DNA of 32,000 nt from Methanothermobacter thermautotrophicus str. Delta H (GCF_000008645.1 NC_000916.1:450001-482000), one strand, 5' to 3'. Positions 14,526 to 28,240 are shown, numbered from the stretch's first letter. Made by a program: numbers and translations. The notes: generated from the sequence alone by a model not told the origin.

Positions 14526-15386
14526 CTAAAGGCAGCCCACCTGTTTCCTGAGTTCAGTCAGAACACGCAGCAGAAGTTTGCTGGTGAGGTGCCACTCCCC
14601 TCCCCTCAGCTCCACGAGGCCCCGGAGCTCAAGCCCCTCAATTTCCTCATCACCAACAGCCCCCTCTGGTATGGGGGCGTCACAGAGATCAGAGAGGATT
14701 CTCTTCTCCACGGGACTGAGCTGTGATAGCTCCACCATCCAGGGAAATGCGATCTGCTGAAACTTGGCAGTGAAGTTCTCCTCCAGCAGCGCCGGCCCAT
14801 AGATGACCCCATCTGAGAGGACGTTCAAGAAGCTGTCAATGAAGAGGGGAAGCCCCTCTGTGAGTCTGTAGATGTAATCCAGGCCTGCAGCTGTGGCCCT
14901 GAATTTGGGTGCCTTCATGCGGATGTAGTTCTCTGTTTCCCTATCCCTAAGGGGTGGTATGTTGACGATGGCCAGTTCAGGTATTCCCTCTTTAATCTCA
15001 TCCAGTAAGTGTCTGCTGTAGGTGGTGGAGACCGCGCATCCCATTGAGTACATACTGCTCATCTTCCAGGCCTCCCTGAAGGCTGATGGTTCAGGTGGCA
15101 TTGAATCTATGAGGATGTTCCACTCAACAGTCCTGGCCAGCGCCATTATCCTCCTGAAGTCTTGTATCCCCTCATGGACCTCCCTTATATCGGCGCACCT
15201 CATATCGATTAGAGTTGTCCTGCTGGGGTTCTCCCCATGGAGTTTCCTAAGAATAGCTGTTTTTCCGGAGCCCCTCATACCTGTTACAATCACGAATCCA
15301 GGGTCATTGAGGCATTCCCTGATCCTTACAAGTTCCCTTTCCCTTCCAAAAAACACATCAGTCCTGTTCAGGGAGATTATGGGCAT
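14526..15386 (-). CDS. Archaeal ATPase family (Arch_ATPase/AAA-like) ATP-binding protein
   Basis: FFGRERELVRIRECL..VIVTGMRGSGKTAIL (Walker A), with an N-terminal layout typical of PF01637-type archaeal ATPases. It starts 19 nt after the stop of the upstream CARF gene. Confidence 0.65.
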   Translation of the reverse strand: MPIISLNRTDVFFGRERELVRIRECLNDPGFVIVTGMRGSGKTAILRKLHGENPSRTTLIDMRCADIREVHEGIQDFRRIMALARTVEWNILIDSMPPEPSAFREAWKMSSMYSMGCAVSTTYSRHLLDEIKEGIPELAIVNIPPLRDRETENYIRMKAPKFRATAAGLDYIYRLTEGLPLFIDSFLNVLSDGVIYGPALLEENFTAKFQQIAFPWMVELSQLSPVEKRILSDLCDAPIPEGAVGDEEIEGLELRGLVELRGGEWHLTSKLLLRVLTELRKQVGCL

Positions 15387-15405
15387 AAATACACTTATTC
15401 ATGTT

Positions 15406-16008
15406 TTAGAGTACTGCGAGTTCGCCGGCTGAGGTTATTTCAAGCTTTTCCCGGTCGATGAACCCCATGTCACGGAGTTCCCTTATGTGGTTGTAGGTCA
15501 TCCCCCTGCTTATGCCTATCTTAACTGCAAGGTTTTTAACGGATTTTTCACCGGCCTTGAGCTCCTCAAGGACCTGTTTCTTTGTCTTGGAGATTCCGAA
15601 GCTCAGTATCGGGAGGTCTATCAGTTCATTGTCCTCCTCAGTCACATAGACTATGCGCTGGACGTCGTGGTTTCTTGCGTAGCAGCCAAAGAGTGCGCCG
15701 AGTGCCTGGGTCTTCCTGCCCCCGCTTATGTTCACAACCACACGCCTTCCATGGGCCCTTTCCTCGTCTATGATCTCCACCATATCCCTTGCAATGCTCA
15801 CAACGTCATAGAGGCTGGTCTCAAAGGTTGTTATCTCGACGAAGTTGCCGAGGGTGTCCCTGAGAACCTGCTCCACCTGCTCCTTTTCCCTGGGAGCCTT
15901 GTCCTCCTTGAGTAAAACCACCTTTCGCGGTGAGAACTGTGTTATGCAGAACATCACCGGTTCAATGGAGTATATCGTGGATATAAGCGTGGTATCCATT
16001 ATTATCAC
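15406..16008 (-). CDS. CARF domain + winged-HTH transcriptional regulator (Csa3-like, 'CRISPR locus-related DNA-binding protein' type)
   Basis: N-terminal Rossmann-like domain with the [10 protein letters not shown] loop at the position of the CARF ligand-binding motif. C-terminal [38 protein letters not shown] is a wHTH. The start is GTG 16008 or ATG 15999. Confidence 0.6.
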
Positions 16009-17631: not shown

Positions 17632-18329
17632 GTGTTGAAAACTTGCTCGGAATGTGGATCAGAAAACAGGGATGGTGCAGCATTCTGTTCAAAATGTGGA
17701 TCAGAGCTTCCCCATGAAGACGGGATTAAAGGATGGTGGAAAAGGCAGAACAGATCCTCAAAGTTTCTTATCATCACACCCTTTGCCATTCTGGTCCTGA
17801 TTCTACTGTTAGGTGCATTTACAGAGCCGTCCGGTTACAGCGATGTTAATTATGATGATGCAACAGTCTATGATAACGATGCAGCTGACGTTTCAGGCGC
17901 ATCCAGCACAAAAACATTTGGGGAAGCGGAATCTCGTTCAGCTATCCAGACACATGGGAAATCTACATACCGGATGAGAGTAGTGATGATAACGTTGTTT
18001 CCCTCAAGTCATATGAGCAGGGCATGGTTTCAATTCTTTCCGTATATAAGAGGCCAGCCACCGTGGACCTTGAGACCGAGCGCGATACGTGTCTTGGAGC
18101 CATCTATGAAAATGGGGATGATGTAACCTATGTTAAGAAGACCACTGTGGACGGTAACAGCGCCTACATCATAGGATCCTCATACTACTATGAGGGTGAT
18201 GAAGGTGAACAGGAGTACGTGGTATTCATTGAAGGGGACTATGCCTATGATATCCTCTTTACAACCGATGACCTGTCACTTATACAGGATGACATAGATA
18301 CCATAATATACAGTTTCAGGGTTGATTGA
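17632..18329 (+). CDS. Zinc-ribbon + TM + family-A (PsbP/DcrB-like) domain protein; frameshifted as assembled
   Basis: N-terminus (M)KTCSECGSENRDGAAFCSKCGSEL, then WWKRQN and a TM segment. After the G4 run at 17920-17923 the family motif GISFSYPDTWE continues in the frame of ORF 18024..18329, which ends DTIIYSFRVD. TTG 17635 is in the 7-nt SD register. Confidence 0.75.
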
Positions 18330-18879
18330 GGTGTCTGATAGGACCATCCTGGTAATTGTGGCTGTCATGGTTATCCTCGCCGGGGCGGCGGTGGCACTGC
18401 AGCTCATGGACACCTGCAGCACTTCAGGTGCCGGTGAAGAGGCTATCATCAAAAAAACAGATGATGGATACTACCTCAACCTCCAGGCAGCCCTGGAGCT
18501 TGCAGAGATGGACCCTCGCAATGGAACCGTGAACTACAGGGGCTTCAACTTCACCGGACCACAGCGCCTCTACATCTTCTCAAGGGCCGTGGTAATGATA
18601 GGATTCAATGACACTGGCATGATACACGTCAGGGATTACGGGGGACCTGAGGACCCCTACGGCTACCTTGACACCGCCACCCTCACAGAGAGCGAGTACC
18701 TTGACATGGCAGAGCGCACCTACACATGGATGGAATCCCATGGCAGAAGCCCCAACCATGTGGGGATCTACGTGAAGGGCTCACCTGATATAACGCCAGA
18801 GCTTGCAGAGAAGATCTTCAGGGAGGTCCTCCTTGAATACATGAGGACAGGAATGCTCCCTGAAATCATAAGCGTCTGA
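18322..18879 (+). CDS. Membrane-anchored protein with C-terminal pseudomurein-binding repeats (PMBR)
   Basis: N-terminal TM (ILVIVAVMVILAGAAVAL). C-terminal SEYLDMAERTYTWMESHGRSPNHVGI and ITPELAEKIFREVLLEYMRTGMLPEIISV resemble the PMBR consensus (..A.R....+...G+.PN.V.. / ..LP..+.V). The start is TTG 18322 or GTG 18331. Confidence 0.65.
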   Translation: MIEVSDRTILVIVAVMVILAGAAVALQLMDTCSTSGAGEEAIIKKTDDGYYLNLQAALELAEMDPRNGTVNYRGFNFTGPQRLYIFSRAVVMIGFNDTGMIHVRDYGGPEDPYGYLDTATLTESEYLDMAERTYTWMESHGRSPNHVGIYVKGSPDITPELAEKIFREVLLEYMRTGMLPEIISV

Positions 18880-19018: not shown

Positions 19019-19720
19019 TTGAGAAGGAAACTGATCTTAACGCTACTTGTCTTAACCCTGATTACTGCAACATACTACCTTATGGACCCCTTTGCGCCCT
19101 CTCAGGGCATCCATGAGTCTCCAGATGATGTCATCGGCTCGGATGAACTTGGAACCGTTGAAAGGCTGGGACCCTATGGTAACCATGATTCATCCATCAG
19201 GATAGCCATAATAACCGGCGTCCACCCCCTGGAGGCGAAGGCCCACAGTGCCATGATACAGGCTGTGGAGGAGAACTCAGACAGCCTCAGGTACATGTAC
19301 GTCATCTACCATGTGAATGTAACCCGGGCCCCATCAGACTATGAGAAGGGGAGGATGGCTGGCCAGATACTCGCAAGAAGGTACGTGGTCCCTGACATCT
19401 CGGCCGGAGACTACGACCTTGCCGTTGATGTGCACTCCAACAGGGGCAACTACGCCATGAGGAGGTTCGTATTCACACCACTTCCTGAGGATAGGAGCAG
19501 AAGGATAGCCCTGGAACTCTCATCGAGGATCAGCTGGCTATCCTACCACTTCCCGGAGTCGCAGACAAGCCCGGCCTATGTGACAGAACCCCTTATAAGG
19601 AACGGGACACCTGCAATCCTCTATGAAAACTTCATGTACCAGGACCAATCCAGGACACTTGAAAATGCCAGGGAATTCCTGATGACACTCGACTCACTTG
19701 ACGTGTCCATGTTCAACTGA
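19019..19720 (+). CDS. Membrane-anchored putative zinc peptidase/amidase (HxxE ... H pattern, M14/AstE- or poly-gamma-glutamate-hydrolase-like; tentative)
   Basis: TTG start giving MRRKLILTLLVLTLITATYYL (signal anchor). IAIITGVHPLEAKAH and DLAVDVHSNRG sit at positions consistent with an HxxE..H metal site. The family call is weak. Confidence 0.4.
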   Translation: MRRKLILTLLVLTLITATYYLMDPFAPSQGIHESPDDVIGSDELGTVERLGPYGNHDSSIRIAIITGVHPLEAKAHSAMIQAVEENSDSLRYMYVIYHVNVTRAPSDYEKGRMAGQILARRYVVPDISAGDYDLAVDVHSNRGNYAMRRFVFTPLPEDRSRRIALELSSRISWLSYHFPESQTSPAYVTEPLIRNGTPAILYENFMYQDQSRTLENAREFLMTLDSLDVSMFN

Positions 19721-20013: not shown

Positions 20014-20700
20014 ATGGTTGATGTGTGCGGTGTTAATGGATACGATGAGATCTCAGGAAAACTGAAGGACCTCCTGGGGCTTGAAAAATCCCCGGTGGCA
20101 ATTAAACTCGTTCTGAGGGAGGATGACCTCCCTGAGGGTGTTGAAAAGATAGGAAAACCAGCAAGGCACTGTGAAATGGTCCAGATGGCTGCAGCTGGTG
20201 AGGTATTCTATGCCACCGCAGAGGCCCAGGCATGCAAGGGAGGTGCCGATGCCCTCGGAATCGATGAGGCCCCTGAGAAGGTCAAAACAGGAGAGTTCTA
20301 CTATGACCTTGGACGTTTTGCAAGCTTTGCATCAGCCAAGAGGACCTTCGATAGGATACCATCCGTTGACCTCAGGTTCTATGCAGCAGTCTACGCTCCC
20401 CTCGAGAAGGCCACATTCGACCCTGACGTCATAGTGATAATCTGCAACCCTGCCCAGGCCATGAAGATCTCACAGGCCCTCGTATACACCCTCGGTGGCC
20501 GTGTGGAGGCAGACTTCTCAGGCATTCAGTCCCTCTGTGCAGATGCCGTTGCAGGGCCATACATGAGGAAGAGACCCAACATAACCATGGGATGCAGCGG
20601 ATCAAGGCAGTACGCGGGTGTGCGGGACGATGAACTCATTGTCGGTCTTAACGGTGAAAACATAGGATGTGTCCTTAACGCCCTTGAGGCCATAAGCTAG
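20014..20700 (+). CDS. DUF169 family protein
   Basis: SPVAIKLV...P.G.....KPARHCEMVQMAAAGEVFYAT.EAQACKGGADALGI ... DPDVIVIICNPAQAMKISQAL ... ITMGCSGSRQYAGVRDDELIVGL matches the DUF169 pattern as I recall it. Perfect GAGGTGATCCA-ATG. Confidence 0.7.
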   Translation: MVDVCGVNGYDEISGKLKDLLGLEKSPVAIKLVLREDDLPEGVEKIGKPARHCEMVQMAAAGEVFYATAEAQACKGGADALGIDEAPEKVKTGEFYYDLGRFASFASAKRTFDRIPSVDLRFYAAVYAPLEKATFDPDVIVIICNPAQAMKISQALVYTLGGRVEADFSGIQSLCADAVAGPYMRKRPNITMGCSGSRQYAGVRDDELIVGLNGENIGCVLNALEAIS

Positions 20701-21012: not shown

Positions 21013-21678
21013 CTAATTTCCATCAGCATTGGTCCTGAGAAAATGGTCTCTTATCCTCAGGTAGTCACTGTAATGGTTTATGTTCACAAGCTCAATGGGG
21101 CGAGAGGCCTCCACACCATAGAGCCTCACACCGTCCTCCAGCATCATCCAGAGGAGGGGGTTTATGTTGCCATCCCCAAGGGGCAGGTAATCCCTGAGGA
21201 GATCGGCACCTGCTGCAAGGGGCATGCCGATCCCCCGGGCATTATCAAGCCAGCCACTCTCACCCCTCGCAAGGATTGAAACCGTGGACCCATCAGCATG
21301 TTCAGCTATCCTCCTGAGGGTTGCAGGTGATACCGCAGGCTGGTCCCCTGCGGCACAGAGGATTATGTCCCCCCCTGCGGCCCTCACACCCCTCAGTAGT
21401 GACGCTGACAGGGGAACATCCACGGGGTCGTTTCTCACCACACGGACATCCATGCCTGAGAGGGCCTCCTCAACCTCCCCTGCCCTGTGGCCGGTCACGA
21501 CTATGCACTCATCAACCCCCGCCGAGAGGACAGCCTTAACTGTGGCCTCTATGACGGTCACCCCATTGAGGGGGAGCAGGAGTTTGTGGACCGGTTCGAG
21601 GCCAAGTTCAGCCATATCCCGCATCATCCTGCTTCCCCTGCCGGCTGCAGCAACAACAGCTGAGATCATATTACCCAC
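21013..21678 (-). CDS. MobA/MocA-like nucleotidyltransferase (NTP_transf_3 type)
   Basis: ISAVVAAAGRGSRM (G-x-G-x-R-M NTP loop), LL.L.G, VVTGH, and LCAAGDQPAVSPATLRRI (the D-x-P motif). The GTG follows the VanW-like stop codon directly. ATG 21669 is an alternative start. Confidence 0.7.
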   Translation of the reverse strand: MGNMISAVVAAAGRGSRMMRDMAELGLEPVHKLLLPLNGVTVIEATVKAVLSAGVDECIVVTGHRAGEVEEALSGMDVRVVRNDPVDVPLSASLLRGVRAAGGDIILCAAGDQPAVSPATLRRIAEHADGSTVSILARGESGWLDNARGIGMPLAAGADLLRDYLPLGDGNINPLLWMMLEDGVRLYGVEASRPIELVNINHYSDYLRIRDHFLRTNADGN

Positions 21679-22847
21679 CTATGCCGGTTCAAGCCTGTAT
21701 AACCTGGCGTATATCCTTGTATTGGCACCTGAACCCGTTGTCCACATCTCTATGAGTACCGGGTATTTCCCTGTGTTCCGGACCTTTATACCTGTTGCCG
21801 GGTTGAAGCCAAAGAGGACCGCATGGAACTCCCAGGTCATACCCCGCGGGAGGGGCATGCCAGCCGAGGTCACGATGGCCCTCAGGGCCCTTGCAGGTGG
21901 GCATGAACCATGGGATGCATAACCCCCGGGGGCTTCAGGGTCCCTTGATGCTGTGAATCTCACGGTCTCCTTACCCGAGGCCTCACTGCCAGGCGGGATT
22001 ATGGTCCCGTTCCATGCTGAGGCGAAGGCCCTCGCATTGAAGGCCCTCCTGTTATCATCGTACTGGGGGTAGAATCCAAGGTAACTCACTGCACTGGATA
22101 CAAGGGACCTCCTGCTGTTATCAATGTAAACCATCACAGGTGAACCAGAGGGGTAGTTCTCCATGTACTCAAGCACGGTATCGCCAAAGAGTTTCTCTAT
22201 CATCCCTGGAGGTACAGGGAGCCTTCCGTCGCTGAAGTTTGAGAGCTGGTAGTCCAGCGCAATCCTGTCGCCCTCATCGGCCCTCCTGTACCATCTCTTT
22301 ATCCTCTCAATGGATCTGTACCGGTGGGGGACTGTGCTGTTGCTTATGCTCCCTGCCGGTACAAAACGGACCCTTTTTCCATTTTCAACTATCTCCACAC
22401 CATCCTTCCTTTTAACCCCGTAGGTGTAGGGTGTCTTGTAGGCCCAGAGGAAGGTGGGGGGCTCCTCCACCACGAGCCTCTCCCCCTGCACCCTGAGGGA
22501 CCCCGGACCGCTGACGGCGGACCTGCCACTTGCATCCACACCCTCTGTCATCTCGGATATGGGGACATGAACGGCTCCTGTCAGCACGGCCTGGAGGAGG
22601 TTTGATGGGTTGAAGTAGTTGAATTCGTCAAGGATGTAGTCAGGGTGCAGCATGATGGGCACGCTCCTCACCCTGGACTCGTCGATGACGTCCTGGCCCT
22701 CAAGTACTGTACTGCCCAGGGCAGGGCCGCTATCTCCACAGGGTTCTGGGGTTCAACCGTTCCCTCAAGGTACCGGCCGCCAGCCGCTGCAGCTGCAACC
22801 AGAATTATTAAAATGATGACGTGTTTACCTGATAGACTCCTCAGCAT
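21679..22847 (-). CDS. VanW-like domain protein with N-terminal TM anchor; N-terminus frameshifted as assembled
   Basis: C-terminal SHGSCPPARALRAIVTSAGMPL ... GIKVRNTGKYPVLIEMWTT parallels the VanW pattern GGG-x-CQ-x-S..L....AGL ... +F+NTT..P..I..W.T. ATG 22847 reads MLRSLSGKHVIILIILVAAAAAGGRYLEG.. (TM) in another frame, with the frame switch somewhere in 22671-22752. This start overlaps the ligase stop by 23 nt. Confidence 0.6.
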
Positions 22848-25813
22848 ACCTGTATCCCCCCTCTCCTATTATGAGCACCGTGTCATCAGGTCCTGCAAGT
22901 TCAAGGGCCTTCCTGACGGCCTCAGCTACCTGCTCCCTGCTGGCACCCAGGGTGCCTCCACCGGCCCTCATCCTGCTGGACCCTATGTGGACCGCTCTCT
23001 CTCCAAGGATGTCTGAGGCCCTCCTGGCGGCGTAGGATGCTGGTATGACCACATCCGCATCCTTGAGGATCGCTGCAATCTCCCTGTCCCCATCGATCCC
23101 GCTCTCAGATGCCACGGTGTTGACCACTATGAGTCTGCCCTTTCCCCTGAGGTCCTGCATCACTGCCCTGACACCTGCAGGGTTGTGGGCGTAGTCCAGG
23201 ATTATCCTGGGCGACTCTGAGAGTTCCTGGAACCTCCCCGGGACGCCTTTGAATGATTCCAGACCCCGGACTATGTCATCAATTTCCAGTCCCATGGTCC
23301 ATGCGGTTGCAGCTGCCGCCAAGGCGTTGTAGACATTGAATATCCCGGGGGTTGCAAGCCTTACCTCCCTCATCTCCTGACCGATTACGAGCTTGAAGCC
23401 CCCGGGGGATGCCTCGATGGCCATGACATCTGGCTGGGGTCTCAGGTACCCGCAGATGCACTGGTAGTCGCCGAGGTGCCCAATGGTTCTCCTGGTGTAC
23501 CTGAGGGGCTTCCCGCACTTGGGGCACTCCCTGCCCTCAGGCACCACGCCACCGGATTCAGAGCTCTGTATGCCATAGAACACAACCCTCTCACGGGGGA
23601 GTCCGTCTGCAAGGGAGGCTACAATGGGGTCATCTGCATTCAGGACAAGGTCCTCTGCAACCTCCACCATTTCACCCTTGCATTCAATGTAGTCAGAGAA
23701 TCTCCGCCCAGCTGAGAGGTGGTCCCTTGATATGTTTGTTATAACACCCACCGAGACACCTGAGAGCATCGCGGAGCTTCTTATCTCCCCCCTCCTGCCG
23801 AAGGTACCTATCTCAACGACGGCGACGTCACCCGGCAGCCTTGCCTGGAGGGCAGGTACAAGTTCAGTGTTTCCCTGGATGTTCAGGTGGTGCTCCGGGA
23901 CCCTCATACCTGCAACCCGCATTATGGATTTGAGCATGCCAGTGGTTGTTGTTTTCCCGTTTGTCCCTGTAACACCCACCACCGGTTTATCCACAGGGCA
24001 CATGTTGAGTACGTCCTCAACACCTATGACGTCGGCGTCAAGGCCACCTGTGAGGTCAAGGATCTTCCGGTTATTCTCAAGGGCAGGTGTTATGGCCACC
24101 GTCCTCGCCCTCCTGAGTATCTCAGGGTCATGTCCTCCGAGGTCGAGGTGTATGCCCTCCTCCCTCAGCACATCCGCCAGGGGTGTGTCCTCCCGGAGAT
24201 TCCGAGACCACGACCCTGTGGCCCCGGGCCTGAGGTTTCTTGCCATCAGGTCTCCGACGTTCCCCAGACCCCCAAGGACGACCACACAGTCCTCCACGGA
24301 TTTCAGGGCCTCCTCTATGTCGGACCTTACATTTTCGTAGGTGTTGACAACCCCGGGGCCTATGTGAAGGATGGTGTCCCCTGGCTCCGCGATCTCAAGG
24401 GCCCTCCTTATGCTGTCGTATACGCTCTCAGTCTTTATGGTCCTCTCCTCGCCGGCGCCCCACGCCACCTCATCGGCGGCCTCCATGTCTGTGACGCCTG
24501 TTGTCTCGTTCTTTGCACTTACGATGATGGTGTGGGCCCTCTCAGCCAGCACCCTCCCTATCCTTTCCTTGTCCCTCACCGTGAGGGTGTCAGGGTTGTC
24601 GAGGCTCACTATGAGTCTGCCCTGGAACTCCATGCCCTCGAAGAGTTTCTCCATGCTCTCGGGGTTGTGGGCTGCGTCCATGTATACCCTGACACCGTCA
24701 ACCTCGTCTATGAACTCAAATCTGCCCCTTATGCCCCTGAAGTCCTCGATACTCCTCTTAATATCCTCCATGTCGAATCCGAGTATGAGTGCGACGGTTA
24801 TGGCTGCGAGGGCATTTTCAATGTTGAATATGCCCGGGACCCTGAGGTTTATCCTCTCCCTCAGGGGCCCCACAGAGACGGCCTCATCATGTTTCCTGCA
24901 GTTGAGGGCTCCGCAGGTGCTGCAGATGGCTGTCTGTATCTCTGATACATTCAGGGTGAAGGTGGATCCTGCAAGTCCCCTCAGCTCTATATCGGAGGCC
25001 CTGACCTGGATACTGGCTGAGCATGAATCTCCTTCCCATGAATTCAACGGTCCTCCTCTCACCCACACCATAGACCACATTTTCTACTTCAAGGTCGTCC
25101 AGGAGGCTCGATATGACCGGGTCATCACCACATAGTGCCAGAACTCCGCCAGGAGCCATGAGGTCCTTTATTGAGAAGTTCCTCTCAATGTACTCATCGT
25201 AGTTACTGAATTCGTCCATGTGATCCGGTGTGAGGTTTGTCACAACCCCTGCTGAGAGTTCAAGGCCCTCAGCCATCCTTATCGTCCCGTGGGGGAGTTC
25301 AAACACTGCAAGATCCCTGTCGTCGATATCCCCATTTACCACAAGTTCCACGAGGCCCTCTATCACCAGTGAATCCTGGAGTGATGAGAATGATACTGTC
25401 CTGTAACGTGAGGAGAGGATGTGGTCTATCATGTTGGTTGTCGTGGTCTTCCCATCGGTTCCCGCAACTCCGACCATTGGGAGCCCTATGAGTTCATTGA
25501 GGGTCCTCCCTATATCAGAGGTTGTTATGTGGACCAGGTCCCCTGCTTCCCTTACCATTTTACGTACCGGTGCGTCCTGGGGGATGTTGGGTGATATGAA
25601 AACAGCGTCAGCCCAGAGTATGTCCTCCATGCTGTGACCCCCGAACCTGAACATCACGCCCTCATCCTCCATCTCAGCTATCCTCTTCTGGGCCTTCAGG
25701 GGTAGTTCATGGAGTTCCCTGACGTCGTTCACAAGTACCCTGTTGTTCAGGTGGTTGAGCAATCTCGCTGCGGGTCTACCTGCGTTTCCAGCTCCAATCA
25801 CAAGCACTTTCAT
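22825..25813 (-). CDS. Tandem double Mur-ligase-family protein (pseudomurein peptide ligase type); the second unit carries a MurT-type Cys4 zinc ribbon; frameshifted as assembled
   Basis: Track ORFs 24887..25825 and 22825..25080 overlap and join near 25030-25045. Unit 1: MKVLVIGAGNAG.. + GVAGTDGKTTTT + ..DAAHNPESM... Unit 2 (from about 24297): VVVLGGLGNVG + GVTGTNGKTTTT + ECPKCGKPLRYTRRTIGHLGDYQCICGYLRPQP + DYAHNPAGV. There is no stop codon between the units. Confidence 0.8.
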
Positions 25814-26116
25814 GTTCCTGATCAATTAAATGCACCCATAAACGTTTTTATTAAACACGCGTTCCTTCCTGATTAATCTGTGAATAAGAGTCACCTGATG
25901 GCACCCGTCCTGACCGAGGTAGTGGGTGTACCTATGGATCATTCGGTGGGATATCTACCAGAGGCAGTCTACCTAAAGATCCTCACCCGGGAGGATATGT
26001 ATCCACCCATAGACACTCTACCTATAAAGATATGTTCTCATCCTATATAGCTATCAGATCCCGGGTCAGGCATCTGGCTCAGTAATCCATGAACTCCCTG
26101 GAGTGTTAGAGGTGAT

Positions 26117-27331
26117 CTAGAGACAGGATGCAAGTCCCTCAAGTTCCTCCTGGACCCGGATTATCACATCCTGACCGTTACCAGCCACAAGTATCCTCCT
26201 GTACTCCCTGGAGAACTCCCTCACCATTTCAGGGATATCCCCCGGGTCATGGACAGTCAGGATCTCTGATGGAATCCTGAGGCTCTTAAGGTGCTCAAGG
26301 GCCATGTCAACTGTATCATCGAGGCCCGGGAAGAGTACCAGGATTTCGGGTGGAGACTCTGCGATTTCATCAAGAATCCCCAGGCGCCACTCCTCTGATC
26401 TTCGTGGTGTGCCAAGGAATATGACATCAAAATTAGATTCCCTGAGCAGTGCCCTCATGGCGTGGGGGTTATCGGTTTTACCTGCAACTACCAGTGCATC
26501 GTTTACACTGAAGGACCTTATACGGCCAGCCACCGGTCTGAATACTGAGAGGTGCCTGGAGATGACTTCTGAGGGTACCCCGAGGAATTCCAGTGCCTCT
26601 GCAGCGGCCCCAGCGTTGAGCCTGTTGAACTCCCCCTCCAGGACGAGTTCGCCCCTGTAGGGGGTGTACTCCATGACACTGCTGGCCCCTGATGTTAGTT
26701 CCTCCAGGTGGGGTTCATCTGCAGAGATCACCACAGCCCTGCCCTCCAGGAAGCTGGCCACTGATTCCCTGTAGTTCTCCATGGAGCCATGGAAGTTCAG
26801 GTGGTCCTCGCCGAGGTTTGTGATGACGGCCAGATCAATATCGAAGCACTCAGATGCGAATTCAAGGGTCATGTCGCAGACCTCAACCACGATGTAATCG
26901 AATTCCTCCTCAGCTGCCCTCAGGATTACCTCTGTGTATCCATCAAAGCCTCCCCCGGCGTTTCCACCGAGAAGGACCCTCCAGCCTGAACTCTCCAGTA
27001 CATGTGCTATCATTGACGCCGTCGTGGTCTTCCCGTTGGTCCCTGTAACTGCAACGGTGACAGGGACCCTGTGCCCCCTGAGTACCCTGCAGAGAAGCCT
27101 GTCACTGAAGCTCTCCCAGAGCCCCGTGCCAAAGATCGAGGGGCTCAGCACCACAGCATCCGATGATGCTATCCTTTCGGTGTCATGGAAGCCCAGGTCA
27201 ACGTCCACACCCTCGAGGTTCAGATCAATGTCCGCCCTTATATCACTGGCGTATACCCTGTGTCCCCTCCTCCTGAGGGATTCAACAGCCTTTAAACCCT
27301 CAGCTCCAAGTCCCAGAACCGCAACCTTCAT
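26117..27331 (-). CDS. Mur-ligase-family protein (MurD-like N-terminal Rossmann domain; pseudomurein peptide ligase type)
   Basis: MKVAVLGLGAEG, AVTGTNGKTTT (P-loop), ITNLGEDHL, and a C-terminal domain. CGGTGAATCA-ATG is in the canonical SD register. Confidence 0.85.
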   Translation of the reverse strand: MKVAVLGLGAEGLKAVESLRRRGHRVYASDIRADIDLNLEGVDVDLGFHDTERIASSDAVVLSPSIFGTGLWESFSDRLLCRVLRGHRVPVTVAVTGTNGKTTTASMIAHVLESSGWRVLLGGNAGGGFDGYTEVILRAAEEEFDYIVVEVCDMTLEFASECFDIDLAVITNLGEDHLNFHGSMENYRESVASFLEGRAVVISADEPHLEELTSGASSVMEYTPYRGELVLEGEFNRLNAGAAAEALEFLGVPSEVISRHLSVFRPVAGRIRSFSVNDALVVAGKTDNPHAMRALLRESNFDVIFLGTPRRSEEWRLGILDEIAESPPEILVLFPGLDDTVDMALEHLKSLRIPSEILTVHDPGDIPEMVREFSREYRRILVAGNGQDVIIRVQEELEGLASCL

Positions 27332-27359
27332 TGATTCACCGTTAACTGCTCTTTAAGGA

Positions 27360-27629
27360 TCATTTCTCATCCTTCTCATCAGAGAATCCCTGCTCCTCTT
27401 CATTTTCTTCATCATCGGAGATTCCGTACTCCTCCTTGAGCTGGGCTATTAGATCCTCATTCATGGATACCTCTGGTATCACAGCCTTTTCATCCTCGCT
27501 GGCTCCCCTTTTCCTTCCTATGGAAACAATCAGTACAACTATAACTGCAATGGCCACTATAACGGCTGCAACGGTTATCAGAACATCAATGCCTATTGCT
27601 GGAGTCTCTGTGCCGGCGCCGGGTCCCAT
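27360..27629 (-). CDS. Small single-pass membrane protein with strongly acidic C-terminal tail
   Basis: IDVLITVAAVIVAIAVIVVLIVSIG followed by RKRG and ..DDEENEEEQGFSDEKDEK. ATG 27629 is in the 7-nt SD register (GAGG-TGTGACC-ATG). Its stop is 28 nt before the ligase start. Confidence 0.6.
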   Translation of the reverse strand: MGPGAGTETPAIGIDVLITVAAVIVAIAVIVVLIVSIGRKRGASEDEKAVIPEVSMNEDLIAQLKEEYGISDDEENEEEQGFSDEKDEK

Positions 27630-27643
27630 GGTCACACCTCAAT

Positions 27644-27653
27644 TTTATATAAA
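27644..27653. promoter_or_regulatory. Palindromic TATA box TTTATATAAA in a 47-bp divergent intergenic region
   Basis: Its centre is about 28 nt upstream of ATG 27677, which has no SD, implying a leaderless mRNA. A second AT element at 27663-27672 could serve the minus-strand gene. Confidence 0.4.
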
Positions 27654-27676
27654 TAATCATACAATATATATCTTAC

Positions 27677-28240
27677 ATGATAATCAAGGATTTAAGGGGA
27701 CAGGGTGGTGCTGAGTACATACTCCTTTTTGCGGCCATAATAGTGATAGCCGTTGCAGCTCTCTACATATACAGCTCCTACTTCAGGTTTTCAGGGAACG
27801 AGGCCGTTGATGTTAAACTCACCATAACAAATATCGGTCCATCCAAGAGCAAGTTCATCTATGAGGCCAACAACACCACCGGCGGCGGAAGCAGACACAT
27901 AGTATCCGGGGATCCAGGTAACAGGTTCTTCCTTCTCCAGCCCGGTGCAAGCCGTACCTTCAACCTTGGAAGGATGAGTGGAGGTACGAGCTTCACCATA
28001 GAGGGAGGAGTCGGAGACCCCAAAGGCGGAACAGATGACCTCAAGGGTATAGGGCAGAGGGGCCGGTGGACGCTGAAAATAGGCAACCAGAGCTACTCAT
28101 GGGTTATAAGCGGACCATATGATTACCGCAGGAACCCCACCGGTAGCGTGCTGATGTCATTCTCCATAAGCGGAGGTGGAGGTTCACCCTTCAAATTCAC
28201 CAGCGACCAGGTCAAGGTGAGGGGAAACGTGTCAGGATGA
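27677..28240 (+). CDS. Archaeal type IV pilin-like protein (class III signal peptide, DUF361-type N-terminus)
   Basis: [31 protein letters not shown] has R-G before the predicted cleavage site, Glu at +5, then a hydrophobic helix. The remainder is Gly-rich and beta-like. Confidence 0.6.

What the first reader, a model, noticed from the sequence alone, without database searches (positions are those of the whole stretch)
21013..27629. Minus-strand Mur-ligase / VanW-like / MobA-like block: candidate extended pseudomurein peptide-stem synthesis and processing locus
Five consecutive minus-strand genes run in this order: a small TM/acidic protein, Mur ligase (404 aa), a 290-bp gap, a tandem double Mur ligase (about 1000 aa, one unit with a MurT-type zinc ribbon), a VanW-like membrane protein, and a MobA-like nucleotidyltransferase. 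Spacings are tight or overlapping (28 nt; 23-nt overlap; stop-start abutting). Mur-ligase homologues of pseudomurein methanogens are already recognised as peptide ligases. To my knowledge the co-linear VanW-like, NTP-transferase and small TM partners have no assigned role. Enzymes are still missing for nucleotide activation of the first residue and for cross-linking of the isopeptide-containing stem. A PMBR protein and a peptidase-like gene lie 1.3-2.7 kb away, which makes this an envelope neighbourhood.
Basis: partly seen in the sequence, partly recalled or inferred. Interest (0 to 1): 0.75.

Follow-up and report, generated by a model that had tools for sequence, protein, structure and literature searches.

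The report
Known pseudomurein gene cluster; VanW-like PmurA
This is the already published pseudomurein cell-wall peptide gene cluster of Methanothermobacter thermautotrophicus Delta H, but its unexplained membrane protein PmurA appears to carry a distant VanW-type domain, which makes it a testable candidate for the missing wall cross-linking enzyme.

Summary
The block is real, but it is not new. The window is the 1997 M. thermautotrophicus Delta H genome, genes MTH_528 to MTH_533. This is pseudomurein "Gene Cluster 1, type 1A" of Subedi 2021 and "cluster B" of Lupo 2025.

NCBIfam names the parts PmurB, PmurA, pMurC, pMurD1 and pMurD2. Crystal structures exist for MTH_528 (6PLJ) and for a pMurC orthologue (6VR7). 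PmurB and pMurC have been assayed in vitro (Cha 2026).

In the window as given, indels break two genes. The 996-aa pMurD1-pMurC fusion is split into 312-aa and 751-aa ORFs, and PmurA loses its membrane anchor. The re-sequenced strain has both genes intact, so these are sequencing errors.

PmurA-PmurB adjacency held in 76 of 76 related loci, and a ligase lay directly upstream in 74 of 75. The small TM/acidic gene is confined to Methanothermobacter.

One new point concerns PmurA's last 130 residues. They match bona fide VanW domains in profile-profile comparison (P = 7.8e-5; 0 of 400 permutations reached the score). The VanW catalytic Cys aligns with an invariant PmurA Cys. PmurA is predicted to face outward. 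This conflicts with the published cytoplasmic kinase idea and suggests a cross-linking or trimming role.

The parts
27360..27629 (-). Small membrane protein with an acidic C-terminal tail (MTH_533). It is 89 aa from the ATG at 27629; the 1997 annotation starts at the GTG at 27635, giving 91 aa. It is specific to Methanothermobacter and is not a conserved member of the cluster.
   Evidence: ORF. No Pfam or NCBIfam family. The exact sequence occurs only in Methanothermobacter records. By tblastn it was found in 1 of 85 related loci (L006, 58% identity), and no analogous ORF lies upstream of pMurD2 elsewhere.
26117..27331 (-). pMurD2 (MTH_532), a 404-aa Mur-type peptide ligase. Its P-loop GTNGKT starts at residue 97 (27043).
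   Evidence: NCBIfam NF053647 pMurD2, 558.7 bits against a cut-off of 550. Pfam Mur_ligase_M and MurD-like_N. Exact match to AAB85038.1.
25814..26116 (.). Non-coding spacer between pMurD2 and the fusion gene. An A/T-rich TATA-like box (TTTAATAAAAA, minus strand) lies at 25845-25855, about 35 nt upstream of the ATG at 25813. This is a possible second promoter (inferred).
   Evidence: Sequence read. The region is poorly conserved and rich in indels against a 98%-identical relative. No Rfam family.
24298..25813 (-). pMurD1 unit (residues 1-506) of the pMurD1-pMurC fusion, annotated in 1997 as MTH_531 plus the start of MTH_530. A 2-nt deletion at 25022/25023 shifts the frame. A partial Cys cluster CSTCGALNC lies at about 24924.
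   Evidence: NCBIfam pMurD1 hits on both ORF pieces and on residues 1-506 of the intact relative (489 bits). Indel mapped. Re-sequenced Delta H protein WBF06792.1 is 100% identical over residues 1-263 and then continues in the other frame.
22825..24297 (-). pMurC unit (residues 507-996, plus stop) of the fusion (MTH_530). The P-loop starts at 23967. The Cys4 zinc ribbon CPKCG...CICG lies at 23449-23526. Compensating -1/+1 indels at 24228/24200 garble 10 residues of the Rossmann-like N-domain.
   Evidence: NCBIfam pMurC scores 530 bits in the window and 630 bits (cut-off 560) in the intact relative. PDB 6VR7 (M. fervidus pMurC) matches residues 511-995 at 548 bits, and MurT chains match residues 722-895. 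Ten consecutive mismatches to the re-sequenced strain at residues 530-539.
21679..22847 (-). PmurA (Mfer335 family; MTH_529), 389 aa when repaired. A 1-nt deletion at 22718 separates the N-terminal TM anchor (22767-22823) from the 330-aa ORF. The C-terminal VanW-like domain lies at 21682-22080, with invariant His313 (21910-21912) and Cys316 (21901-21903).
   Evidence: NCBIfam NF053640, 493 bits. Frameshift mapped. Conservation from alignments A1 and A4. AF2 model with pLDDT 91.4. hhalign against VanW alignments. Topology analysis.
21013..21678 (-). PmurB (Mfer334 family; MTH_528), a MobA/GlmU-like nucleotidyltransferase. It is 221 aa from the GTG, or 218 aa from the ATG at 21669.
   Evidence: NCBIfam NF053639, 262.6 bits against a cut-off of 260. 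Pfam NTP_transf_3, 87.6 bits. PDB 6PLJ matches all 221 residues of this protein at 474.7 bits. In vitro work on the M. ruminantium orthologue is in Cha 2026.
20014..20700 (+). DUF169 protein (MTH_526), convergent with PmurB. It is a conserved neighbour of the cluster in Methanobacteriales and has no known link to pseudomurein.
   Evidence: Pfam PF02596, 233.7 bits. It lies on the opposite strand within 2.5 kb of the PmurA end in 57 of 66 loci with room, and was detected in 78 of 85 loci overall. It is not mentioned in the pseudomurein papers.
19019..19720 (+). Exported 233-aa protein with HPLE...H (an HxxE...H metal-site-like motif).
   Evidence: Translation. No Pfam, NCBIfam or PDB sequence hit. 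Position matches the text of Lupo 2025. Found near the cluster only in Methanothermobacter-type loci.
18322..18879 (+). Protein with two pseudomurein-binding repeats (PMBR).
   Evidence: Pfam PF09373, 61.3 bits, two stretches.

Best explanation
The block is the published pseudomurein (PM) peptide-stem biosynthesis cluster of Methanothermobacter thermautotrophicus Delta H, genes MTH_528 to MTH_533. It corresponds to Gene Cluster 1 type 1A of Subedi 2021 and cluster B of Lupo 2025.

Shown here or in the literature:
- Three Mur-type ATP-dependent peptide ligases are present. pMurD2 is separate, and pMurD1 and pMurC are fused into one 996-aa protein.
- They are followed by PmurA and by the nucleotidyltransferase PmurB.
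- The apparent breaks in the fusion and in PmurA are errors of the 1997 sequence.

Proposed working model:
- PmurB makes the UDP-activated glutamate starter. This is a literature hypothesis with partial assays.
- pMurC adds Ala or Thr. This was assayed in vitro on the M. ruminantium enzyme.
- pMurE, encoded elsewhere, adds Lys.
- pMurD1 and pMurD2 add the remaining residues. So far only ATPase activity has been shown for them.

My own inference for PmurA is that it is not a cytoplasmic kinase. I read it as a type-II membrane-anchored protein that faces outward. Its C-terminal roughly 130 residues are a divergent VanW-type domain built around an invariant His-Gly-x-Cys-Pro motif. By analogy with VanW L,D-transpeptidases, it most likely forms a thioacyl intermediate with the PM stem peptide outside the membrane and then cross-links or trims it.

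The cluster may be transcribed as two units, MTH_533-pMurD2 and fusion-PmurA-PmurB. This rests only on TATA-like boxes and gene spacing.
For: Identity of the locus:
- Exact protein matches to Delta H records AAB85034/35/37/38 and to PDB 6PLJ.
- NCBIfam equivalog models for PmurB, PmurA, pMurC, pMurD1 and pMurD2.
- The cluster is described in the literature.
- Assays of PmurB and pMurC.

Sequencing errors:
- Two independent relatives (98-99% identity) and the re-sequenced strain carry an intact 996-aa fusion and a 389-aa PmurA. They are identical to the window apart from the indel sites and a few substitutions.

Synteny:
- PmurB follows PmurA in 76 of 76 loci, and a ligase precedes PmurA in 74 of 75.

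PmurA:
- 32 of 44 family members carry an N-terminal TM segment. The net charge is +2.3 before it and -1.8 after it, which predicts N-in and bulk outside.
- Several members have N/S/T-rich C-terminal tails.
- His313, Gly314, Cys316, Pro317, Arg320 and Arg323 are invariant in 43 sequences, including a Methanopyrus-like one.
- hhalign against 20 bona fide PF04294 proteins gave P = 4.4e-4 and then P = 7.8e-5 as diversity was added. It aligned 117 columns spanning the whole VanW domain, with the VanW nucleophile Cys on Cys316.
- In the domain-only comparison the score was 34.5 against a permutation mean of 12-13.5 (sd 2.3). None of 400 permutations reached it, z is about 9, and the Gumbel P is about 3e-6.
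- The order and spacing of secondary-structure elements agree between the two AF2 models, and in both the Cys sits at the N-cap of a 13-residue helix.
- PmurA has no Walker A motif, no helix after 'SGKE', and no NTPase or kinase hit in the PDB by fold or by sequence.
Against: - Pfam's own VanW model scores only 14 bits against a gathering threshold of 27.
- A HMMER profile search of 1.84 billion proteins found no bacterial VanW protein.
- The first comparison, against a narrow VanW-B-only alignment, was not significant (P = 0.11; permutation P = 0.02-0.06).
- The VanW segment that carries the invariant His152 (ER..HS) has no counterpart in PmurA, and the conserved VanW Asp178 aligns with a PmurA position that is not Asp. 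A shared Cys-His-Asp triad is therefore not demonstrated.
- Four of seven foreign VanW proteins showed no LDT activity in C. difficile.
- Cha 2026 saw ATP hydrolysis with recombinant PMurA, though no product was detected.
- Lupo 2025 favours exported transglutaminases as the cross-linking enzymes.
- In a Methanopyrus-like genome PmurA is unlinked from the ligases.
- Co-transcription was not tested.
Confidence: 0.85

Rival explanations
1. PmurA has a VanW-like fold but is not the cross-linking transpeptidase. It could be an extracytoplasmic carboxypeptidase or endopeptidase that trims or remodels pseudomurein stems. It could attach proteins to the wall. It could also be a non-catalytic partner of the export and polymerisation machinery.
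For: - The VanW His segment is missing in PmurA, and the conserved VanW Asp178 aligns with a non-Asp position.
- Only three of seven foreign VanW proteins had LDT activity.
- LDT-family enzymes are known to act as carboxypeptidases and endopeptidases as well.
- Exported transglutaminases are the published cross-linking candidates.
Against: - The His-Gly-x-Cys-Pro..Arg..Arg motif is invariant across Methanobacteriales and a Methanopyrus-like lineage, which argues for catalysis.
- The family appears confined to PM archaea, and in Methanobacteriales the gene sits tightly between the stem-peptide genes. This fits a core biosynthetic step.
Confidence: 0.35
2. PmurA is a cytoplasmic ATP-dependent enzyme that phosphorylates or activates glutamate for the first step of stem-peptide synthesis. 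This is the published hypothesis of Subedi 2021 and Cha 2026.
For: - The gene lies next to PmurB, which needs an activated Glu.
- Recombinant PMurA degraded ATP to ADP and AMP.
Against: - The predicted product was not detected.
- An N-terminal TM anchor with positive-inside charge bias puts the bulk of the protein outside.
- The conserved 'SGKE' is not a Walker A motif and is not followed by a helix in a model with pLDDT 91.
- There is no fold or sequence match to any kinase, NTPase or ATP-grasp protein in the PDB.
- The C-terminal domain matches VanW.
Confidence: 0.08
3. The frameshifts are real. On this reading, strain Delta H carries pseudogenised or programmed-frameshift versions of the pMurD1-pMurC fusion and of PmurA.
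For: They are present in the window and in the deposited 1997 proteins MTH_529, MTH_530 and MTH_531.
Against: - The re-sequenced Delta H record (1,751,429 bp) encodes the intact 996-aa and 389-aa proteins. These are 100% identical to the window up to each indel.
- A nearby -1/+1 pair garbles a conserved Rossmann motif, which is typical of base-calling error.
- Lupo 2025 notes other spurious pseudogenes in this genome.
Confidence: 0.03
4. The small TM/acidic protein (MTH_533) is a functional partner of the pathway, for example a membrane tether for the ligases.
For: It lies 28 nt upstream of pMurD2 on the same strand, with a TATA-like element in front. It is conserved within Methanothermobacter and in L006.
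Against: It is absent upstream of pMurD2 in all other Methanobacteriales loci examined. It belongs to no family. Pseudomurein is made without it in most lineages.
Confidence: 0.1

Closest known systems
Pseudomurein biosynthesis Gene Cluster 1, type 1A (Subedi et al. 2021), also called cluster B (Lupo et al. 2025)
   Same: This is the same locus in the same organism. The gene order is pMurD2, pMurD1-pMurC (annotated as fused or overlapping), Mfer335-like PmurA, then Mfer334-like PmurB. It is restricted to pseudomurein archaea.
   Different: Nothing differs in gene content. The 1997 sequence in the window carries frameshifts. The published functional guess for PmurA (phosphoryl transfer or NTPase) differs from what I find.
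VanW-domain L,D-transpeptidases (C. difficile Ldt4 and Ldt5; Pfam PF04294)
   Same: - Both are membrane-anchored with a large extracellular part.
- Both act in a cell-wall context.
- The roughly 130-aa domain aligns end to end with PmurA 257-388 (P = 7.8e-5).
- The nucleophile Cys, at the start of a 13-residue helix, aligns with the invariant Cys316.
- Other conserved positions also line up: Asn75/Asn271, Pro90/Pro286, Asn183/Asn358, and the AG(L/F) motif after the helix.
   Different: - PmurA is below Pfam's threshold.
- It lacks the VanW beta-hairpin before the Cys and the ER..HS segment that carries the invariant His.
- It has its own invariant His three residues before the Cys, in a GG-x3-HG-x-C insertion.
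- It has no PG4 or G5 domains. Its middle domain is unrelated to them.
- The substrate would be an all-L pseudomurein stem with isopeptide bonds.
Bacterial dcw cluster (mraY-murC/D/E/F together with ftsI)
   Same: Mur-type ligase genes are clustered with a bitopic membrane protein whose catalytic domain works outside the membrane. I cite the ftsI-murE adjacency from general knowledge, and it was not tested here. Ligase fusions also occur in bacteria, as MurE-MurF.
   Different: - The starter is a UDP-amino acid rather than UDP-MurNAc.
- No PBP is present.
- The nucleotidyltransferase PmurB is part of the cluster.
- MraY and pMurE lie in a second cluster elsewhere in the genome.
MurT of the MurT/GatD lipid II amidotransferase
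   Same: A Cys4 zinc ribbon is inserted in the central ATPase domain, as in the pMurC unit. PDB MurT chains match fusion residues 722-895.
   Different: pMurC is a ligase with a MurC/D-type N-domain. NCBIfam places it in pMurC (630 bits) and not in MurT (154 bits).

Membership tests
Pseudomurein Gene Cluster 1 / cluster B | At least one C/D-type pMur ligase lies next to an Mfer335-family gene and an Mfer334-family gene on one strand. | tested here: met
   NCBIfam hits for pMurD2, pMurD1, pMurC, PmurA and PmurB in that order on the minus strand. The same order is seen in relatives.
Pseudomurein Gene Cluster 1 / cluster B | Restriction to pseudomurein-containing archaea. | tested here: met
   A PmurA profile found 68 proteins among 1.84 billion. 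All were family members or fragments, apart from one spurious hit. All 80 loci fetched from 185,579 species genomes are Methanobacteriales-type contigs, two of them with evidently mislabelled bins.
Mur ligase family (each of the three units) | A central ATPase domain with a GxxGKT P-loop, plus a Mur_ligase_C domain. | tested here: met
   Pfam Mur_ligase_M on all three units and Mur_ligase_C on the fusion units. P-loops start at residue 97 (pMurD2) and at residues 118 and 617 of the fusion. Mur_ligase_C was not reported for pMurD2 at E <= 0.01.
pMurC (NF053645) | Score above the curated cut-off, and the Cys4 Zn ribbon in the middle domain. | tested here: met
   630 bits against a cut-off of 560 on the intact relative. 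The window copy scores 530 bits because of the garbled stretch. CPKCG...CICG lies at 23449-23526. 6VR7 matches at 548 bits.
pMurD1 (NF053646) | Score above the curated equivalog cut-off of 610 bits. | tested here: not met
   489 bits on the intact relative, with pMurD1 as the best family for that half. It is the positional and best-hit orthologue, and the literature treats it as pMurD1. The low score reflects an insertion in the Methanothermobacter lineage.
MobA-like NTP transferase / PmurB (NF053639) | An NTP_transf_3 domain and an equivalog score at or above the cut-off. | tested here: met
   Pfam 87.6 bits. NCBIfam 262.6 bits against a cut-off of 260. PDB 6PLJ matches all 221 residues of this protein at 474.7 bits.
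VanW family (PF04294) | A match to the Pfam model above the gathering score of 27 bits. | tested here: not met
   14.3 bits for P0002. Ten of 44 members hit at E <= 10, with a best E-value of 0.012.
VanW family (PF04294) | Profile-profile homology across the whole domain. | tested here: met
   hhalign gave P = 7.8e-5, probability 62% and 117 aligned columns. Domain-only comparison gave E = 3.8e-5. None of 400 permutations reached the score, and z is about 9.
VanW family (PF04294) | A nucleophile Cys in GGGxC at the start of a helix. | tested here: met
   VanW Cys129 aligns with the invariant Cys316. Both are the first residue of a 13-residue helix in the AF2 models. The glycine run is interrupted in PmurA (GG-yas-HG-x-C).
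VanW family (PF04294) | The catalytic His (ER..HS) and the conserved Asp completing a Cys-His-Asp triad. | tested here: not met
   The VanW His152 segment falls in a gap of the alignment, and Asp178 aligns to a non-Asp position. PmurA instead has an invariant His313 next to the Cys.
VanW family (PF04294) | Superposable three-dimensional fold. | not testable with these tools
P-loop NTPase or kinase (published proposal for PmurA) | A Walker A motif GxxxxGK[ST] on a strand-loop-helix, and an NTPase fold. | tested here: not met
   Only 'SGKE' is conserved. The first Gly is not conserved, there is no Ser/Thr, and no helix follows it in the model. Foldseek against the PDB and a profile search of PDB sequences found nothing.
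YkuD-type L,D-transpeptidase, sortase, or transglutaminase/papain-like enzyme | A fold match to solved members. | tested here: not met
   No PDB match at E <= 0.001, although these folds are well represented in the PDB.

The most novel reading that the evidence does not exclude
PmurA (MTH_529, Mfer335 family) is the long-missing enzyme that cross-links pseudomurein. On this reading it is an archaeal, highly divergent VanW-type cysteine transpeptidase. It is anchored in the membrane with its catalytic domain outside. Its catalytic His has moved next to the Cys (His-Gly-x-Cys). It forms a thioacyl intermediate with the stem peptide and transfers it to a neighbouring stem. If so, murein and pseudomurein would share extracellular cross-linking chemistry of the VanW type as well as Mur ligases and MraY. 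I found no paper in the searchable library that links VanW and pseudomurein.
Probability: 0.3. Interest if true: 0.85.

Novelty: already known. Interest (0 to 1): 0.5.

Why it matters
The locus itself adds nothing. It is the reference pseudomurein cluster of the reference strain, with curated family models, two crystal structures and first enzyme assays.

The re-reading of PmurA is the part that matters. The enzyme that cross-links pseudomurein has never been identified. The field has considered PmurA as a possible cytoplasmic glutamate-activating enzyme and has pointed to transglutaminases for cross-linking.

A statistically supported link between PmurA and the VanW domain, which was shown in 2024 to be a peptidoglycan transpeptidase, turns this into a direct experiment. 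So does PmurA's predicted outward topology and its invariant His-Gly-x-Cys motif. The experiment would use the ectodomain, a C316A variant, sacculi or stem-peptide assays, and depletion in the genetically tractable Delta H strain.

PmurA would also become a specific target for inhibitors of rumen and gut Methanobrevibacter. It would extend the shared ancestry of murein and pseudomurein to the extracellular steps.

There is also a practical lesson. The 1997 Delta H records, and several current annotations that call PmurA as 330 aa, hide its membrane anchor. This may have contributed to the '0 TM' entry in Lupo 2025's table and so to the cytoplasmic reading.

Tried and rejected
- Pfam and NCBIfam scans at normal thresholds give no VanW hit for PmurA.
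- A HMMER profile of 44 PmurA sequences, searched against 1.84 billion representatives, reached no bacterial protein.
- A PDB sequence search with the PmurA profile gave only noise.
- The first hhalign run used a narrow VanW-B-only alignment and was not significant (P = 0.11; 3 of 150 and 9 of 150 permutations reached the score). I would have dismissed the VanW idea at that point. Significance appeared only after I diversified the VanW alignment with 12 annotated VanW genes from plasmid records, and then diversified the PmurA side.
- The middle part of PmurA was compared with the PG4-containing parts of long VanW proteins, with no similarity.
- The sigma-70 promoter scan is irrelevant for an archaeon and was at background level. 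I read TATA-like boxes by eye instead.
- Rfam found nothing in the window.
- The small TM protein was rejected as a conserved partner.
- The 'peptidase-like' gene at 19019-19720 could not be assigned to any family with these tools.
Only the database proteins it retrieved were used, and all of them carry PF04294.

Full report
**What is in the window**

ORF listing and family scans show five co-directional minus-strand genes between 21013 and 27635.
- An 89/91-aa protein with one TM helix and an acidic tail.
- A 404-aa Mur ligase, NCBIfam pMurD2 at 558.7 bits against a cut-off of 550.
- A spacer of about 300 nt.
- Two overlapping ORFs of 312 aa and 751 aa. Together they carry a pMurD1 unit and a pMurC unit.
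- A 330-aa ORF of the Mfer335 family, 'PmurA', at 493 bits.
- A 221-aa MobA-like nucleotidyltransferase of the Mfer334 family, 'PmurB', at 262.6 bits against a cut-off of 260.

On the plus strand downstream lie several further genes.
- A 69-aa ORF.
- A DUF169 gene.
- A 60-aa zinc-ribbon-like ORF.
- An exported 233-aa protein with an HxxE...H motif.
- A protein with two pseudomurein-binding repeats.

The rest of the window encodes an HMD paralogue, an ion channel, a UvrD helicase, CobN, STAND and Csa3-like genes, MsrA and 2-oxoacid:ferredoxin oxidoreductase subunits. None of this is related to the cell envelope.

**Where the window comes from, and the frameshifts**

Exact-sequence look-ups identify the window as the 1997 genome of Methanothermobacter thermautotrophicus Delta H, a 1,751,377-bp record.
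- PmurB = AAB85034.1
- PmurA = AAB85035.1
- The 312-aa ORF = AAB85037.1, 'MTH_531'
- pMurD2 = AAB85038.1
- The small protein = AAB85039.1

I compared the window with two contigs that are 98-99% identical, L001 and L002. Relative to them the window has these differences.
- A 2-nt deletion at 25022/25023.
- A -1/+1 pair at 24228/24200.
- A 1-nt deletion at 22718.

The relatives encode a single 996-aa pMurD1-pMurC protein. They also encode a 389-aa PmurA whose ATG overlaps the ligase stop by 23 nt.

The re-sequenced Delta H record (1,751,429 bp) encodes the same 996-aa protein (WBF06792.1) and 389-aa protein (WP_269889776.1). Against the window, these proteins are 100% identical up to each indel and then continue in the other frame. 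The only cluster of mismatches is the ten residues between the -1/+1 pair. There the window reads PGATGSWSRN in place of the Rossmann motif ARGHRVVVSD.

The breaks are therefore sequencing errors and not biology.

**What is already known**

This locus is in the literature.
- Subedi et al. 2021 define 'Gene Cluster 1'. They name Delta H as type 1A and note that the ligase genes are annotated as fused or overlapping. They state that Mfer335 relatives are restricted to pseudomurein methanogens and have a membrane insertion domain near the N-terminus. They propose Mfer334 as the nucleotidyltransferase, and Mfer335 (or an ATP-grasp protein) for phosphoryl transfer.
- Lupo et al. 2025 recover the same genes as 'cluster B'. 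They mention the Mur-alpha/Mur-beta fusion in Methanothermobacter and Methanobrevibacter. They also note a Sec-exported 'Zn peptidase' three genes from the NTP transferase in Delta H.
- Cha et al. 2026 assayed PMurB, PMurC (adds Ala or Thr) and PMurE (adds Lys). For PMurA they saw only ATP hydrolysis and no product.
- PDB 6PLJ is MTH_528 itself, and 6VR7 is the M. fervidus pMurC.

An alignment of 44 PmurA homologues was used to scan one genome for each of 185,579 species. It found 173 PmurA-encoding stretches, and I fetched the best 80. All are Methanobacteriales-type contigs.
- PmurB lies directly downstream of PmurA in 76 of 76 loci with room.
- A pMur ligase lies directly upstream in 74 of 75.
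- The ligase next to PmurA is pMurD2 in most genera. pMurD1 and pMurC are inserted between them in Methanothermobacter, many Methanobacterium species and termite-gut Methanobrevibacter.
- pMurD1-pMurC is one open frame in 11 of 21 such loci. In the other 10, pMurD2-pMurD1 share one open frame instead; in M. oryzae this is a 928-aa ORF.
- The small TM/acidic protein was found only in the Methanothermobacter lineage.
- A GC-rich (62.7%) Methanopyrus-like lineage has PmurA away from the ligases and PmurB.

The small protein is not a conserved partner.

**PmurA and its topology**

The family is very narrow. A HMMER profile found 68 hits among 1.84 billion representative proteins, all family members or fragments apart from one spurious hit.

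His313, Gly314, Cys316, Pro317, Arg320 and Arg323 are invariant, including in the Methanopyrus-like member. So are Arg268, Asn271, Trp279, Pro285 and Asn358.

Thirty-two of 44 members have an N-terminal hydrophobic segment. The other 12 have N-terminally shorter sequences and look like truncated gene calls. The mean net charge is +2.3 before the segment and -1.8 in the 15 residues after it. By the positive-inside rule, the bulk of the protein is outside. Some members end in N/S/T-rich tails with N-x-S/T sequons.

An AlphaFold2 model is confident, with pLDDT 91.4 and pTM 0.82. It has no significant match in the PDB or in BFVD. The only P-loop-like string, 'SGKE', lacks the first Gly and the Ser/Thr, and no helix follows it.

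I therefore find no support for an NTPase domain or for a cytoplasmic role.

**Is PmurA VanW-like?**

Pfam's VanW model is the most recurrent sub-threshold hit. It matched 10 of 44 members, with a best E-value of 0.012 and 14 bits against a 27-bit threshold.

I kept only database proteins that carry PF04294.
- Against this narrow VanW-B set, hhalign was not significant (P = 0.11; permutation P = 0.02-0.06).
- I then added 12 annotated VanW-family genes from plasmids of Bacillus, Bartonella, Arthrobacter, Enterococcus, Rubrobacter, Paenibacillus, Deinococcus, Streptomyces, Cytobacillus and Rhodococcus. All 20 members of the new alignment match PF04294, with a best E-value of 3.7e-52.
- The comparison then gave P = 4.4e-4.
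- With a more diverse PmurA alignment it gave P = 7.8e-5 and probability 62%. The alignment has 117 columns and covers PmurA 257-388 against VanW 61-209, which is the whole Pfam domain.
- Restricted to the domains, the score is 34.5. The permutation mean is 12.3-13.5 with sd 2.3. None of 400 permutations reached the score, z is about 9, and the Gumbel-extrapolated P is about 3e-6.

Significance rose as diversity was added on both sides. That is the expected behaviour of true remote homology.

The alignment puts the VanW nucleophile Cys (GGGxC) on Cys316. It also pairs Asn75 with Asn271, Pro90 with Pro286, Asn183 with Asn358, and the AG(L/F) motif 13-15 residues after the Cys. In both AF2 models the Cys opens a 13-residue helix, and the flanking elements come in the same order with similar spacing.

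There are differences.
- PmurA lacks the VanW hairpin before the Cys.
- PmurA lacks the ER..HS segment with the invariant VanW His.
- PmurA's own invariant His sits in a short insertion three residues before the Cys.
- The middle domain of PmurA is unrelated to the PG4 regions of long VanW proteins.

No structural superposition could be done.

I estimate about a 70% probability that the domain is a VanW homologue. I estimate about 30% that PmurA is specifically the cross-linking transpeptidase.

**Mechanism**

VanW domains were shown in 2024 to be cysteine L,D-transpeptidases. The tested enzymes are membrane-anchored and have large extracellular domains.

By analogy, PmurA would attack the donor stem peptide outside the membrane with Cys316, helped by His313. 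The thioacyl intermediate would then be resolved with an amine of a neighbouring stem (cross-link) or with water (trimming). That pseudomurein cross-linking releases a terminal residue is from my own knowledge of the König/Hartmann pathway and was not checked here.

The rest of the cluster supplies the cytoplasmic steps. PmurB provides UDP activation of Glu, and pMurC, pMurD1 and pMurD2 extend the peptide.

Rivals for PmurA are a non-transpeptidase VanW-like role and the published kinase idea. The published cross-linking candidates are exported transglutaminases.

**Transcription**

Only inference is available.
- The 47-nt divergent intergenic region 27630-27676 holds two A/T-rich TATA-like elements. 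They could serve MTH_533 and the pilin-like gene at 27677.
- A TTTAATAAAAA box lies at 25845-25855, about 35 nt upstream of the fusion ATG.
- The fusion, PmurA and PmurB overlap or abut.

**Verdict**

The small TM partner is not conserved.

The 'VanW-like' remark is the valuable part. It is not in the papers I could search, it contradicts the current functional guess for PmurA, and it is now statistically supported.

Noticed in passing
window 20014-20700 (+); loci L006-L085: A DUF169 (PF02596) gene lies convergent to PmurB in 57 of 66 Methanobacteriales loci with room (78 of 85 loci overall). This neighbour is as conserved as the cluster itself. It is not mentioned in the pseudomurein papers, and DUF169 has no known function.
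   Followed up: partly
L022 5602-8388 (Methanobacterium oryzae DSM 11106); also L016, L018, L020, L021, L024, L028, L035, L042, L048: In these loci pMurD2 and pMurD1 share one open frame. L022 has a 928-aa ORF scoring pMurD2 683 bits and pMurD1 436 bits, while pMurC is separate. This is a different ligase fusion from the Mur-alpha/Mur-beta (pMurD1-pMurC) fusion mentioned in the papers I read.
   Followed up: partly
window 25022/25023, 24200-24228, 22718; substitutions at 24534, 24462, 24342, 24252 and 22074: These are differences between the 1997 Delta H sequence and the re-sequenced strain within this 4-kb stretch: two frameshifting indels, one compensated pair, and five amino-acid substitutions. 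Other genes of the 1997 record probably carry similar errors.
   Followed up: yes
PmurA records WBF07217.1, WBF09006.1, NLU04284.1, MBC7111619.1; L002 3482-4651: Several current annotations call PmurA as 330 aa from an internal GTG, although the 389-aa ORF with the TM anchor is intact in the one I checked (L002). This hides the membrane anchor and may have contributed to Lupo 2025's table listing the family with 0 TM segments.
   Followed up: partly
L097 (Streptomyces fungicidicus) and L099 (Rhodococcus sp. WAY2), VanW-family genes: These two actinobacterial VanW-family proteins have Ser instead of Cys at the nucleophile position (GGGVSAV, GGGISQF). They may be serine-based or inactive variants.
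   Followed up: no
window 27630-27676: Only 47 nt separate the divergent starts of MTH_533 (-) and a class III signal peptide (pilin-like) gene at 27677-28240 (+). The region holds two back-to-back A/T-rich TATA-like elements, TATATATT and TTTATATAAA.
   Followed up: no
window 19019-19720 (+): This exported 233-aa protein carries HPLE...H, which resembles an M14-type metal site. It matches no Pfam, NCBIfam or PDB sequence. It is probably Lupo's pseudomurein-specific OG0000169 and lies near the cluster only in Methanothermobacter.
   Followed up: partly
L086 8001-9179 (GC 62.7%, Methanopyrus-like MAG): The PmurA homologue (NF053640, 289 bits, below the cut-off of 400) sits between a TP_methylase gene and a MoaA-like radical SAM gene followed by AlaRS. 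No ligase or PmurB lies within 8 kb. The His-Gly-x-Cys-Pro..Arg..Arg motif is kept.
   Followed up: partly
window 14526-16008 (-): A STAND/AAA_16 NTPase gene lies next to a gene for an HFX_2341_N / Cas_APE2256 (Csa3-like) protein with an HTH domain. The same pair is seen in relative L003. It may be a defence or signalling module.
   Followed up: no
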